Below, in pieces: positions 6,262 to 9,094 of a DNA stretch of 13,800 bases. The notes under the pieces are model-generated. The model saw only the letters and a list, made by a program, of their open reading frames with translations. It was not told the DNA's origin and searched no databases. A program made the translations under genes and the position numbers. The first letter of the stretch is position 1, and every line of letters starts with the position of its first letter. Origin of the DNA: a virus; the UHGV virus genome UHGV-0225830. One strand, 5' to 3'.

Positions 6262-7038
6262 ATGAAAACTATCGAGTTTAAGAATAGCAGTCTTTGGGCA
6301 TACACGCACATCATTACGAGTTTCCTGAAAAACGTTACTCCACATCTTGCTTATCAGATTTGTGGGAATGAGCTCACTATCGGTGGTTTTAACGAGGATG
6401 AATTAAAACGAGCAAAAGAGTTCATTGACGATGTTCTTCGTGGTGAAGCAACGTGTTTAGTTGCAAGTTACGTTGCTAAAGACAAAGGAAGATTAAACGT
6501 CATGGCAATTTTCAGATCGTTCTCCGAAAAAGTATACGAAGTTGAGAAGATTAGTCATACCGTTTATATTGTTTACTTTAAACGTTCGGCGGAGAAAAAC
6601 GCTGATAAAATTCTGGAGTATTTCGACTGTAACCCGGGGGAAGGTATGGATGTCTATACGCTCGGTTACGATGGGGTACCTCACCGGAATAACCTTATTC
6701 GCATTGACGAACCTTTTTCTGTCAATGACGATTCCTCGCCTATAGAGATGGTTCTGGTACACAAAGATCGTTTCGCGCATTACGACTCTGATACTATTCA
6801 ACGTGTCCTGAACAACGTTAATGTACAGTTTTCACAAACCGAGCACTTAGTACGTGCATGTCTTAGGTCTAATGGCACAACATCATTTTTCTTCGAACGT
6901 CAAACCGTTTGGCAAACTTATCTGGCTCTGATGGAAGAACTTGATAGGATCGAGCCAGTTCAGGTTGGTGCAAATTGCTTATATTGGATAAAAACAAAAG
7001 GGTTCATGAATGAAAACGCTCAATTCAGATTTGCGTGA
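6262..7038 (+). CDS. hypothetical protein (258 aa)
   Basis: ATG 6262 preceded by AAAGGA (6249-6254); overlaps the next gene by 29 nt; no recognised motif. Confidence 0.75.
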   Translation: MKTIEFKNSSLWAYTHIITSFLKNVTPHLAYQICGNELTIGGFNEDELKRAKEFIDDVLRGEATCLVASYVAKDKGRLNVMAIFRSFSEKVYEVEKISHTVYIVYFKRSAEKNADKILEYFDCNPGEGMDVYTLGYDGVPHRNNLIRIDEPFSVNDDSSPIEMVLVHKDRFAHYDSDTIQRVLNNVNVQFSQTEHLVRACLRSNGTTSFFFERQTVWQTYLALMEELDRIEPVQVGANCLYWIKTKGFMNENAQFRFA

Positions 7039-7438
7039 TTACATCCGTCAGTACCCAGCCAGTATTCCTGTACTGGCTTCGCTTACGCTTTCAGGTACTG
7101 ACGTTAACATTTTAACGGTGGAGCAGTTCCACGAGATAATAAAAACCGCCTATAACTCCATTACCGCAACGTCAGTACGTAAACGTTGCGATTATCCAGA
7201 CGGGGATTTCGGCACCGAGATGTTTACAGATTATGCGGTTGCGTTTCTGTTAGGGCGACACTGCCTCGATAAACTTAACACTGCTGTAGAAGGGGAAACA
7301 GTGACGGAAATTGTCAATGCTTGGCAGCAACGTATTCTGAACGACCCTTACTGCCGCCAAGCGTTGAAACGAATGTCCACAACGGCGATTACAAACGACC
7401 AGCGTGCTTTAGAGTTCTTTAAGCACAATTACAGCTAA
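7010..7438 (+). CDS. family B protein (142 aa), paralog of 8663-9094
   Basis: ATG 7010 preceded by AAAAGGG (6996-7002). Aligns with the 8663 protein: LN.D.R.YIR..P, YP.G..G..M, DP, MS.T in the same order. Confidence 0.75.
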   Translation: MKTLNSDLRDYIRQYPASIPVLASLTLSGTDVNILTVEQFHEIIKTAYNSITATSVRKRCDYPDGDFGTEMFTDYAVAFLLGRHCLDKLNTAVEGETVTEIVNAWQQRILNDPYCRQALKRMSTTAITNDQRALEFFKHNYS

Positions 7439-7459
7439 TTTACCAAAAGGAAAAATGAC

Positions 7460-8593
7460 ATGTTTAATATCGAAATTACCCCGCTCGTTAAAACTGAAAT
7501 CCGTCCGGTTCCTGAAGCACAGTTACTCGATCAACTTTATCGCATATTCCTGGATAAAGGTGTACATTTCCGTGTAGAGCAGGTCAACGATGAAAGCATC
7601 GTATTCTACTGGACTCACTGCAACGATTATCTTTGCGACACTATCGCGAAAGAAATCGGTGAGTTGCTCAACCCAGCAGAAGGTACCACGAACGCCTGGG
7701 TAGAATCGACCGAGACTGAACAACCGAAAGTCGAGGTTGAAAAACAAGAGTGGCCTATAAACAACGGCAACAAACCGTATTCCCTCTGGTACGACGGCAG
7801 GAAGGGTAAGGAAATTAAAGAAACGTTAAGGGCCCTCTATCCTGACTTTTTAAACTTTTATTGGGATGGTGACAAGATCATCGTTCAAATGAAGAATTTC
7901 GATCAAAAGATTATAGAAGAAATTCGTTCTATCGCTGAGCTGATCGATAACGACGCCGTTCGCCTTATTTCGGTTCGCGATATCGGAAAAGAAGATGCAG
8001 ATGATATCATGCGTGGTGCTGTTCACGAACACAAAGAGAAAATTCGTGGGTCTAATTATGTTGACGGTACTCTAACTGTGCTTGTTGATAATGATCCTGT
8101 CGTTATTAAATGGTTCGAAGAACCGTATTCCTTTACTTACACTGGCGCAGAGGCCGAAGCGATTAATGATACCTTGACAGCTTTCTATCCTACCAAAGTA
8201 GAGACTAAACTCGAGGGCGAAAAACTCACCATTAAATGGAAATGGTGGGACGCTGCTCTTGACGAAGAAATTAGCAACCTCATTAATGAGATCGTTGACA
8301 ATCGTCTACGTCTTCTGACAATCACTGCTATTGGGAAAGAAGATGCCGATACGTTTATGCGTGATATCACTCGTTGGTTTCCTGAGAAAGTCCGTCAGTG
8401 GACTTACACAGACAATACACTTACCATTCTGCTCAACTATGAACCCGGTATTATTGGAAAGTTAAAAACCCATCTGAGTGACTTGCGGTCAGTTCGTTTT
8501 CTTAAGGATAATGAGCACACGATCGACGCGCTCTTTAGAGAAATATCTTCTGGCGTAGTCTGCGTTTGTCCTGCTTGTCAGAAGCATCGCTAA
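7460..8593 (+). CDS. hypothetical acidic protein (377 aa) with an internal tandem duplication and a C-terminal CxCxxC cluster
   Basis: ATG 7460 preceded by AAAGGA (7446-7451); residues 107-213 and 223-329 align (YS..Y, TL.A.YP, IGKEDAD, MR, EK.R, TLT.L.N..P); C-terminus VCVCPACQKHR. Confidence 0.8.
   Translation: MFNIEITPLVKTEIRPVPEAQLLDQLYRIFLDKGVHFRVEQVNDESIVFYWTHCNDYLCDTIAKEIGELLNPAEGTTNAWVESTETEQPKVEVEKQEWPINNGNKPYSLWYDGRKGKEIKETLRALYPDFLNFYWDGDKIIVQMKNFDQKIIEEIRSIAELIDNDAVRLISVRDIGKEDADDIMRGAVHEHKEKIRGSNYVDGTLTVLVDNDPVVIKWFEEPYSFTYTGAEAEAINDTLTAFYPTKVETKLEGEKLTIKWKWWDAALDEEISNLINEIVDNRLRLLTITAIGKEDADTFMRDITRWFPEKVRQWTYTDNTLTILLNYEPGIIGKLKTHLSDLRSVRFLKDNEHTIDALFREISSGVVCVCPACQKHR
7778..8446 (+). 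repeat. Intragenic tandem duplication (two units of about 107 codons, each with an IGKEDAD motif)
   Basis: Units at about 7778-8098 and 8126-8446 within the 7460-8593 gene. Confidence 0.7.
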
Positions 8594-8610
8594 TTAACTA
8601 AATTCGTACA

Positions 8611-8645
8611 AGGGGTGGTAAACCATCCCTCTATTATTGTATTTA
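8611..8645 (+). terminator. Possible terminator or RNA stability hairpin
   Basis: Stem AGGGGTGG (8611-8618) / CCATCCCT (8623-8630) with one G-U pair, loop TAAA, followed by interrupted T-rich CTATTATTGTATTT; weaker than the other terminators. Confidence 0.4.
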
Positions 8646-8662
8646 CCTAAAGGAGTATTAAA

Positions 8663-9094
8663 ATGTTTTTCGTATTAAATGATGAAATCCGTAACTACAT
8701 TCGTAACAACCCTATTGCTCTGGGCGTTCTAGCAGGTTTCTGTCGTCCAAATACTGACTTCGATTTAGTTAAGTTAGAAGAATATCAGGAAATTGTGAAT
8801 ACTAATTACACGCACATCTGTAGCTGGGGTAAACGTCCTCGTGAAGAGTACCCTGTAGGTGAGTTAGGTGACACTATGCATCGTGACCAGAATCTGATGC
8901 ACGAATTCGTTGAATACACACTGGAAAATCTTAACTATCCGCTTCTTGTCGACACTGTACCAGAAATGGTTGACGAATGGTTAAAACGTGTTTATAGCGA
9001 TCCTACCGCCAACAAGTTACTGAGTCAGATGTCGCAAACTTCTCGTGATATCGACACTCGCACCCTAATGTACTTAGCACACAACGTTCGCTAA
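8663..9094 (+). CDS. family B protein (143 aa), paralog of 7010-7438
   Basis: ATG 8663 preceded by ATTTACCTAAAGGAG (8641-8655); alignment as above. Confidence 0.75.
   Translation: MFFVLNDEIRNYIRNNPIALGVLAGFCRPNTDFDLVKLEEYQEIVNTNYTHICSWGKRPREEYPVGELGDTMHRDQNLMHEFVEYTLENLNYPLLVDTVPEMVDEWLKRVYSDPTANKLLSQMSQTSRDIDTRTLMYLAHNVR

What the first reader, a model, noticed from the sequence alone, without database searches (positions are those of the whole stretch)
7010..9094. Local paralog-X-paralog arrangement around a gene that is itself internally duplicated
Two about 142-aa genes (7010-7438 and 8663-9094) are diverged paralogs with shared motifs in the same order. They flank the 377-aa gene (7460-8593), which contains two tandem 107-residue repeats each carrying IGKEDAD and ends in a CxCxxC cluster. 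The downstream paralog also carries the same extended SD as the gene at 3529. This points to repeated segmental duplication and divergence, suggestive of an arms-race locus.
Basis: seen in the sequence. Interest (0 to 1): 0.55.

Follow-up and report, generated by a model that had tools for sequence, protein, structure and literature searches.

The report
Hypervariable modular gene between duplicated genes
In an uncultivated giant phage of Salmonella and E. coli, two old copies of a small conserved gene bracket a fast-diversifying repeat-built gene of unknown function; this looks like an ordinary phage accessory hot spot, although the protein family itself is undescribed.

Summary
A (7010-7438) and B (8663-9094) are paralogs: 34% identity, E 1e-29. 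X (7460-8593) contains a true internal tandem repeat with a period of 116 aa (not 107). X ends in an invariant CxCPxCQKxR.

The window comes from an uncultivated ~222-230 kb SPN3US-like ("Seoul-like persistent") jumbo phage. Cultured relatives carry a single A/B homolog (SPN3US gp135) and no X. The A/B duplication is therefore lineage-specific, but it is old and the A-X-B order is the same in all nine relative loci examined.

A and B are strongly constrained (dN/dS 0.11 and 0.06). The variable element is X:
- dN/dS is 0.40, against 0.03-0.18 for the twelve other genes that could be scored.
- The large database holds 253 clusters at 90% identity for X, against 12 for B and 5 for A.
- Module M1a has eight allele classes that shuffle by recombination.
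- Whole repeats are lost in frame in some relatives.
- A second, dispensable single-repeat paralog sits at a site that is empty in this window.

The AF2 model of X shows five beta-alpha-beta-beta-alpha (ferredoxin/ACT-like) modules. B is a confident all-helical fold with no PDB relative.

Function is unknown. My best guess, at low confidence, is a cytoplasmic host-interaction adaptor with constant ends and variable middle modules.

The parts
7010..7438 (+). Gene A: 142-aa member of phrog_8484 (SPN3US gp135 family) and upstream paralog of B. Its start overlaps the end of the preceding gene by 29 nt.
   Evidence: ORF. phrog_8484 E 1.7e-15. 34% identical to B, E 1e-29. dN/dS 0.11. Two allele classes among relatives, 94-99% and 77-80% identity.
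7460..8593 (+). Gene X: 377-aa acidic (pI 4.9) modular protein. Conserved N-domain at residues 1-72, variable linker at 73-103, repeat 1 at ~104-220 (modules M1a and M1b), repeat 2 at ~221-337 (M2a and M2b), helical tail at 338-367, and invariant C-terminal CxCPxCQKxR at 368-377.
7769..8119 (+). Repeat 1 of X (residues ~104-220). Its first module, M1a (residues 104-164), is the most variable segment of the locus.
   Evidence: Per-column conservation. M1a dN/dS 0.53, with some pairs at 1.1-1.2. Eight allele classes, pairwise identity down to 26%.
8120..8470 (+). Repeat 2 of X (residues ~221-337).
   Evidence: Aligns with repeat 1. Absent from the 253-aa forms in L011 and L014; it is the only repeat in the 247-aa form P0138.
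8561..8590 (+). Invariant C-terminal CxCPxCQKxR of X, a presumed metal-binding or oligomerisation knob.
   Evidence: C368, C370, C373, K375 and R377 are invariant in 120 of 120 homologs, and P371 in 119. The motif is absent from the paralog P0142.
8611..8662 (+). Conserved X-B intergenic element: a GC hairpin (8611-8630), a T-rich tract, and the extended SD TACCTAAAGGAGTATT (8644-8659).
   Evidence: Hairpin listed by the terminator scan. The element is conserved in all eight loci compared, including those with the divergent B allele. The SD motif recurs at 3511-3526.
8663..9094 (+). Gene B: 143-aa member of phrog_8484 and downstream paralog of A. All-helical fold with seven helices.
9101..9128 (+). 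Intrinsic terminator that closes the operon ending in A-X-B.
   Evidence: 12-bp stem with a T-rich tail. The matching upstream terminator is at 2077-2105.
3483..3528 (+). Empty second X-family slot. Relatives carry a 280-aa single-repeat paralog of X here. The window keeps only the junction, with the same ATTTACCTAAAGGAGCATTAAA motif that follows X.
   Evidence: L005 5434-6276, L007 5446-6288 and L011 3647-4489 carry the 280-aa gene. It is identical or near-identical to P0142. hhalign of the X profile against P0142 gives probability 92%, E 6e-7.

Best explanation
Shown. The locus is the 3' end of a ~7-kb, 13-gene operon bounded by terminators (about 2110-9128). It holds genes of unknown function and lies between the tail-fibre genes and the head-protein genes of an uncultivated Seoul-like 'persistent' jumbo phage. 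A small all-helical protein family (phrog_8484; the SPN3US member is gp135) was duplicated once in this lineage, long ago. The two copies, A and B, now bracket X. X is restricted to this clade. It consists of a strongly conserved N-terminal beta-alpha-beta-beta-alpha domain, two ~116-135-aa repeats each made of two ferredoxin/ACT-like modules, and an invariant C-terminal tri-cysteine basic tail. A and B evolve slowly. X is the hypervariable element: its non-synonymous rate is 4-10 times higher at a normal synonymous rate, its variable cassettes (M1a, and M2b plus tail) exist in discrete allele classes that reassort by intragenic recombination, and whole repeats are lost in frame. A second, dispensable X paralog occupies another slot in the same operon.

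Inferred, with low confidence. X is a cytoplasmic, probably non-virion host-interaction protein, for counter-defence or host takeover. The constant N-domain and the Cys tail (probably a metal-stabilised oligomerisation or docking knob) would form a fixed scaffold or effector interface. The exchangeable middle modules would bind a partner that differs between host strains. A and B probably keep the ancestral gp135-type function, so their association with X would be positional rather than mechanistic.
For: Anatomy.
Synteny and copy number: SPN3US and phiEaH2 each have a single A/B homolog just upstream of the DUF7941 head genes and have no X.
Fixed A-X-B order in nine relative loci.
A and B are sister clades against the outgroup.
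X diversity: X is 65-80% identical where the genes immediately downstream and most upstream genes are 85-99% identical, although a few upstream genes carry far more divergent alleles. 90%-identity clusters number 253 for X, 12 for B and 5 for A. NG86 estimates give X dN 0.174, dS 0.431, ratio 0.40, against 0.03-0.18 for the twelve other genes scored. The N-domain ratio is 0.09, the modules and tail 0.30-0.69, and some M1a pairs reach 1.1-1.2.
Module shuffling: 8 M1a classes by 7 tail classes give 22 combinations, AMI 0.10.
Repeat loss in independent assemblies, including a complete circular record.
Second paralog slot.
Folds.
Invariant Cys tail.
Non-virion status of the SPN3US counterpart: gp135 is annotated only as hypothetical while neighbouring virion proteins are flagged. 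It is absent from the virion lists in the main text of PMC5694885.
No signal peptide; acidic pI.
Against: No homology ties A, X or B to any protein of known function. Average dN/dS in X is below 1, and no site-level test for positive selection was possible, so relaxed constraint is not excluded. There are no expression, localisation or interaction data. The ferredoxin-like fold is generic and the multi-domain arrangement in the model is uncertain (pTM 0.42). Only three conserved Cys are present and no invariant fourth ligand sits near them (H189 is invariant but lies in repeat 1; C59 is not invariant), so metal binding is unproven. The fixed A-X-B order could reflect a functional three-gene unit that I am discounting.
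Confidence: 0.35

Rival explanations
1. Relaxed constraint. X is a dispensable accessory gene drifting nearly neutrally in its middle, and its diversity and repeat losses reflect tolerance rather than an arms race.
For: dN/dS is below 1 in every region on average, at most 0.69. Whole repeats can be deleted. The paralog in slot 1 is clearly dispensable: it is deleted, frameshifted or replaced in different relatives.
Against: The ORF is intact in all 120 listed homologs. The N-domain (dN/dS 0.09) and the Cys tail are nearly invariant. Deletions are always in frame and keep both ends. The variable segments fall into discrete, deeply diverged allele classes that are maintained and reshuffled, not a continuum of decay. 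X is present in every relative examined.
Confidence: 0.25
2. A, X and B form one functional three-component unit. For example, A and B could be paralogous adaptors or chaperones that dock on the constant ends of X.
For: The A-X-B order and spacing are the same in all nine relative loci. A-X spacing is tight (21 nt), and the X-B intergenic element is conserved.
Against: The A/B homolog exists alone, without X, in SPN3US, phiEaH2 and 34 other phage records. The X paralog in slot 1 is not flanked by A/B relatives. Allele classes of A, B and the X cassettes assort independently: L015 has A at 99%, X at 80% and B at 60%.
Confidence: 0.2
3. X is a morphogenetic or receptor-related factor, such as a tail-fibre assembly or adaptor protein or a virion decoration, whose variable modules track host-range determinants.
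For: The operon lies between the tail-fibre and gp38-like adhesin genes and the head-protein genes. There is a weak, non-significant profile hit to Mu tail-fibre assembly protein U, E 0.23.
Against: Strong terminators separate the operon from both structural modules. X M1a alleles do not co-vary with gp38-like adhesin alleles in the eight relatives compared. The counterpart region in SPN3US (gp125-137) is annotated as non-virion. The PDB hit is not significant.
Confidence: 0.1
4. X is a nucleic-acid-binding regulator that uses helix-hairpin-helix-like GIGxxxA motifs plus a C-terminal zinc knuckle.
For: Sub-threshold Pfam HHH_5 hits in 25 of 67 homologs (best E 1.2e-4) and HHH_2 in 10, over the segment 'LISFxGIGKGEADEFM'. 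The C-terminus is basic with invariant Cys residues.
Against: No hit reaches Pfam's gathering score. AF2 models the segment as strand-loop-helix within a beta-alpha-beta-beta-alpha module at pLDDT ~80-89. The protein is acidic overall, pI 4.9. The Gly is not conserved in the paralogs P0142 and P0139.
Confidence: 0.07

Closest known systems
SPN3US gp135 / phiEaH2 gp056 family (phrog_8484, function unknown)
   Same: A and B match this PHROG (E 1.7e-15 and 4.3e-20). They have the same length (~143 aa) and the same position, just upstream of the DUF7941 'paralog family B' head-protein array.
   Different: Cultured relatives have one copy, while this clade has two copies that are only ~33% identical to each other and 22-27% identical to the outgroup. 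Here the copies bracket an extra gene. No function is known for any member.
ACT / ferredoxin-like beta-alpha-beta-beta-alpha-beta domains, e.g. the tandem ACT domains of SerB (3p96), SpoT ACT (7qpr), aspartokinase, TyrR and GcvR
Paralog families and mosaic accessory regions of giant phiKZ-like phages (SPN3US paralog families A, B and C)
   Same: Local gene duplication followed by divergence, with copy number differing between related giant phages (PMC5694885). Accessory genes are exchanged as alleles.
   Different: The known SPN3US families are virion proteins. A, B and X lie in a non-structural operon. The strongest variability is inside one gene, as module classes and repeat number, rather than in gene copy number.
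Single-repeat X paralog (P0142, 280 aa) of the same phage clade
   Same: Same N-domain plus one double-module repeat (hhalign probability 92%, E 6e-7, 213 columns). Same operon, and followed by the same ATTTACCTAAAGGAG junction.
   Different: It has one repeat, a different helical C-terminus without the Cys cluster, and no A/B flanks. It is dispensable: absent from this window, frameshifted in L006, and replaced in L009 and L010.

Membership tests
phrog_8484 / SPN3US gp135 family (A and B) | Significant match to the family profile over most of its length | tested here: met
   A: E 1.7e-15, residues 1-128 against profile positions 3-126 of 140. B: E 4.3e-20, residues 2-129. tblastn of B hits 36 phage records, 34 of them covering at least 80% of the query.
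phrog_8484 / SPN3US gp135 family (A and B) | Syntenic position upstream of the DUF7941 head-protein array | tested here: met
   The order of the w3529, w4761, A/B and w9265 homologs is conserved in L001 (SPN3US) and L002 (phiEaH2).
ACT domain (Pfam clan ACT) for the X modules | Match to an ACT-family sequence profile | tested here: not met
   No ACT model hits any of the 67 homologs at E up to 0.1.
ACT domain (Pfam clan ACT) for the X modules | beta-alpha-beta-beta-alpha-beta ferredoxin-like fold | tested here: inconclusive
ACT domain (Pfam clan ACT) for the X modules | Small-molecule binding at the beta1-alpha1 loop | not testable with these tools
   IGKEDAD lies at the beta1-alpha1 junction of M1b and M2b, but only I and A/D are invariant and Gly is lost in paralogs. 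This needs biochemistry.
Helix-hairpin-helix (HHH_5 / HHH_2) DNA-binding domain | Profile score at or above Pfam's gathering threshold | tested here: not met
   16.4 bits in the window protein against a cut-off of 27. Best E-value among 67 homologs is 1.2e-4, and 25 of 67 give sub-threshold hits.
Helix-hairpin-helix (HHH_5 / HHH_2) DNA-binding domain | Helix-hairpin-helix secondary structure | tested here: not met
   The AF2 model has strand 167-173, a loop, then helix 177-194.
Zinc finger / zinc ribbon (C-terminal tail of X) | Four conserved Cys/His ligands in appropriate spacing | tested here: inconclusive
   Three invariant Cys (368, 370, 373). H376 is present in 76 of 120 homologs and C59 in 87 of 120. 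H189 is invariant but distant. No zinc-finger Pfam model hits.
Known anti-phage defence or counter-defence families (PADLOC-DB; Pfam; NCBIfam) | Profile match | tested here: not met
   No hits for A, X or B. The paralog P0142 gives one weak PRTase_III-A hit at E 0.0013, judged to be chance.
Tail-fibre assembly protein (Mu U / Tfa) | Significant sequence similarity | tested here: not met
   Only hit is 5yvq_B at E 0.23.
Diversity-generating retroelement target gene | A template repeat near the variable region, plus a reverse transcriptase | tested here: not met
   No DNA repeat matches the variable segments within 6900-9200. No reverse-transcriptase domain appears among the called genes of the 20-kb loci. 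Variation falls into discrete allele classes and is not adenine-targeted.

The most novel reading that the evidence does not exclude
X and its dispensable single-repeat paralog define a previously undescribed family of modular proteins specific to the 'persistent' Seoul-like jumbo phages. Their exchangeable ferredoxin-like cassettes would act as strain-specific recognition modules. They might neutralise, or avoid being sensed by, host immunity, or set superinfection or persistence compatibility with particular Salmonella or E. coli lineages. The invariant N-domain and tri-Cys tail would couple recognition to a constant effector, possibly the A/B proteins.
Probability: 0.15. Interest if true: 0.7.

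Novelty: new member of a known kind. Interest (0 to 1): 0.38.

Why it matters
Chimallivirus-like jumbo phages that persist in clinical Salmonella, E. coli and Shigella isolates were recognised only recently, and nothing is known about what governs their compatibility with particular hosts. In the nine relatives sampled, X has by far the highest dN/dS in this 13.8-kb window and is never more than 80% identical to the window copy, while keeping invariant ends. That makes it a concrete, cheap candidate for allele-swap or knock-down experiments on host specificity, counter-defence or persistence. If it proves to be neutral drift, the locus is simply another mosaic accessory region. The confident model of B adds an all-helical fold with no relative in the PDB.

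Tried and rejected
- Megablast and tblastn of the locus and of X against 50,697 phage records found nothing for X or for its paralog P0142. Only B found distant hits of 24-27% identity.
- Pfam, PHROGs, NCBIfam and PADLOC returned nothing informative for A, X, B or the neighbouring genes.
- PDB sequence profile searches gave only non-significant hits.
- Foldseek of X against BFVD returned only low-TM matches to uncharacterised giant-virus proteins.
- AFDB50 was not available on the machine.
- An exhaustive HMM search of 1.84 billion representatives with the X profile found only the same clade, the paralog P0142, and one repeat-driven hit to a 2,289-aa cadherin-like protein that I judged spurious.
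- hhalign showed that SPN3US gp134 and gp137, phiEaH2 gp053 and gp054, and window genes 5672, 6262, 3039 and 3529 are not remote relatives of A/B or X.
- Sequence comparison of the five structural modules of X detects only the 116-aa double-module repeat. The a-type and b-type modules are not detectably similar.
- C59 as a fourth metal ligand is rejected, because it is Y, S, W or F in 33 of 120 homologs.
- Rfam found nothing in the window.
- Literature searches for SPN3US gp135 and for infection-time proteomics gave no functional data.
- dN/dS for genes 5312 and 5672 failed because ortholog extraction went out of frame; those values were discarded.
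Full report
**1. Observation**

The three ORFs exist as described: A 7010-7438 (142 aa), X 7460-8593 (377 aa) and B 8663-9094 (143 aa), all on the + strand.
- A and B align without gaps over 137 residues at 34% identity, BLASTP E 1e-29. The Smith-Waterman z-score against shuffles is 40.
- Both match the same PHROG of unknown function, phrog_8484.
- X contains a genuine tandem repeat. Residues ~104-205 align with ~220-321 at z = 27.6, and IGKEDAD occurs at residues 175 and 291, giving a period of 116 aa rather than 107.
- At DNA level only a 35-nt patch encoding IGKEDAD..MR is still recognisably repeated, and nothing remains between A and B. 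Both duplications are therefore old.
- The C-terminal Cys cluster is real. C368, C370, C373, K375 and R377 are invariant in 120 of 120 homologs.
- The extended Shine-Dalgarno region shared by the genes at 3529 and 8663 is real, a 15/16 match where ~0.2 loose matches are expected by chance.

**2. Where the window comes from**

No cultured phage is close. Megablast finds nothing, and the best structural-protein identity is ~46%. Gene order and distant protein similarity place the window in the SPN3US/phiEaH2 group of phiKZ-like (Chimalliviridae) jumbo phages.

The window itself matches a 12.3-kb Logan contig. Close relatives are 222-230-kb contigs from Salmonella, E. coli, Shigella and Enterobacter isolates and from metagenomes. 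Two of them are deposited as circular 'plasmids': E. coli 98232 NZ_CP173450.1 and Enterobacter ludwigii NZ_CP134650.1. This matches the 'Seoul-like persistent jumbo phages' described in bioRxiv 10.1101/2024.12.31.630880.

**3. Genomic setting**

A, X and B are the last three genes of a ~7-kb run of 13 same-strand genes of unknown function (2191-9094).
- The run is bounded by strong intrinsic terminators at 2077-2105 and 9101-9128.
- Upstream lie the tail-fibre and gp38-like adhesin genes.
- Downstream lie DUF7941 genes, which correspond to SPN3US 'paralog family B' head proteins.
- The SPN3US counterpart of A/B is gp135. It is annotated only as hypothetical while neighbouring virion proteins are flagged, and it is absent from the virion lists in the main text of PMC5694885.

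**4. History of the A/B duplication**

SPN3US and phiEaH2 each carry one A/B homolog at the syntenic position and have no X. hhalign shows that the similar-sized neighbours gp134 and gp137 are unrelated. In a neighbour-joining tree, A and B form sister clades against the SPN3US/phiEaH2 outgroup. A-B identity is 33%, and either copy is 22-27% identical to the outgroup. The duplication is therefore lineage-specific but ancient.

The A-X-B order is the same in all nine relative loci inspected: L005, L006, L007, L009, L010, L011, L013, L014 and L015. There is no copy-number variation of A or B within the clade.

**5. Which gene is variable**

- Against relatives, the genes immediately downstream and most upstream genes are 85-99% identical at protein level. 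X is only 65-80% identical, and in this sample it is never above 80%.
- The large database holds 253 clusters at 90% identity for X, against 12 for B and 5 for A.
- Nei-Gojobori estimates over seven loci give X dN 0.174, dS 0.431 and a ratio of 0.40. A is 0.11, B is 0.06 and ten further genes are 0.03-0.18. Synonymous divergence in X is ordinary, so the excess is in amino-acid change.
- Within X, the N-domain ratio is 0.09. The linker, modules and tail run at 0.30-0.69. Some M1a pairs reach 1.1-1.2.
- Across 120 homologs, M1a falls into eight allele classes, with identity down to 26%. The tail falls into four major classes.
- M1a and tail classes combine almost freely: 22 combinations, adjusted mutual information 0.10. 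M2b and the tail are linked, at 0.66. X is therefore a recombining mosaic.
- Repeat number varies in frame. The 253-aa forms keep only repeat 1 (L011, which is a complete circular record, and L014). A 247-aa form keeps only repeat 2, and a 324-aa form lacks M1a. All of them retain the N-domain and the Cys tail.
- A and B also have alternative allele classes: A at 77-80% identity, and B at 58-60% in L014 and L015, where the flanks are 94-99%. Genes 4363, 5023 and 6262 show the same pattern. The whole operon is a mosaic accessory region.

**6. A second X-family slot**

An exhaustive profile search found, outside the X orthologs, only P0142 (280 aa).
- It is a single-repeat paralog: N-domain plus one double module, with a different helical C-terminus and no Cys cluster. 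hhalign gives probability 92%, E 6e-7.
- It lies between the 147-aa and 171-aa genes in L005, L007, L011, L014 and L015. It is frameshifted in L006, replaced by an unrelated 175-aa gene in L009 and L010, and cleanly absent from the window at 3483-3528.
It suggests that the original duplicated unit comprised an X-family gene plus its 3' junction.
- The genes flanking slot 1 are not A/B relatives.

**7. Structures**

- X: AF2 with 67 sequences gives pLDDT 76 and pTM 0.42. The model shows five consecutive beta-alpha-beta-beta-alpha modules (residues 9-70, 107-163, 167-220, 223-279 and 283-350) followed by a helical tail.
- Only the double-module repeat is detectable by sequence.
- BFVD gave nothing useful.
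- A recurrent sub-threshold HHH_5 signal appears in 25 of 67 homologs, best E 1.2e-4. It coincides with 'GIGKxEADxFM' but conflicts with the modelled strand-loop-helix and never reaches Pfam's cut-off.

**8. Interpretation**

The anatomy and the evolutionary pattern are shown by the data above.

Function is inferred. X is acidic (pI 4.9), has no signal peptide, and sits in a non-structural operon. It combines strongly constrained ends with exchangeable, fast-changing middle modules. I judge the most likely role to be a cytoplasmic host-interaction adaptor for counter-defence or host takeover, at roughly 0.35 confidence.

The rivals are:
- Relaxed constraint.
- A genuine three-gene A-X-B unit.
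- A morphogenetic or receptor-related role.
- An HhH-type nucleic-acid binder.

A and B most likely keep the ancestral gp135-type function, for three reasons. That family exists without X in other phages. The second X paralog lacks A/B flanks. Allele classes of A, X and B assort independently.

**9. Verdict**

The 'arms-race locus' interpretation is partly supported, and only for X. The paralog-X-paralog architecture itself is old and fixed.

The phenomenon, a mosaic and fast-evolving accessory gene in a jumbo phage, is a known kind. The X family and the fold of B are undescribed. Interest is moderate.

Noticed in passing
window 5672-6217 (+): This 181-aa gene is itself an internal tandem duplication. 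Its halves align over ~76 residues (NELV.KE.YKFT ... SIDIG ... SD), z = 30. hhalign shows no relation to X. Internal duplication is therefore not unique to X in this operon.
   Followed up: partly
window 3483-3528; L005 5434-6276; L006 5388-6231; L009 5506-6033: A polymorphic slot that holds a 280-aa single-repeat paralog of X in some relatives. It holds a frameshifted copy in L006 and an unrelated 175-aa gene in L009 and L010, and it is empty in the window. The 3' junction motif ATTTACCTAAAGGAG is the same as after X.
   Followed up: yes
window 4363-4761, 5023-5370, 6262-7038: These genes occur as sharply dimorphic alleles, 34-47% amino-acid identity, or are replaced or absent, in relatives whose flanking genes are mostly above 85% identical. 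This indicates allele replacement across the operon.
   Followed up: partly
window 8611-8662: The X-B intergenic hairpin (GGGGTGG-loop-CCAYCCC) followed by CTCTATTATTGTATTT is conserved in all eight loci compared, even where B is the 58-60% allele. It could be an attenuator, an RNA-stability element, a promoter, or a recombination junction.
   Followed up: partly
window 12647-13138 (-): An opposite-strand gene with a lipoprotein-type N-terminus (MKSMIKRFLIVLVGVFSLAGC, lipobox LAGC) matching phrog_9559. It is bounded by a bidirectional terminator at 12615-12642. It is a candidate superinfection-exclusion or envelope-modifying lipoprotein in a phage that persists in its host.
   Followed up: no
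whole window; NZ_CP173450.1; NZ_CP134650.1: The phage clade has no cultured representative in the phage collection searched. Relatives are deposited as circular ~222-kb 'plasmids' of E. coli 98232 and Enterobacter ludwigii 51A:C, and appear as contigs in many Salmonella and Shigella assemblies. This is consistent with the persistent Seoul-like jumbo phages of bioRxiv 10.1101/2024.12.31.630880.
   Followed up: partly
window 891-1451 and 10127-10603: Short (186-aa and 158-aa) copies covering only the N-terminal half of the DUF7941 / SPN3US paralog-family-B head-protein domain sit next to a full-length copy at 9265-10113. The head-protein paralog array here is much smaller than the 20 members of SPN3US.
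   Followed up: no
window 4761-5641: The mechanical ORFs 4761-5072, 5023-5370 and 5312-5641 overlap by 50-59 nt. Gene calls in relatives (102, 102 and 93 aa with ~10-nt overlaps) suggest that the true starts of the second and third genes lie further downstream.
   Followed up: no
L003 10037-12266 and equivalent positions in L005-L015 (just beyond the window's right end): Two adjacent radical-SAM genes (440 and 307 aa) and a DUF4376 gene lie on the opposite strand downstream of the endolysin and DUF1353 genes. Their role in a jumbo phage is unexplained.
   Followed up: no
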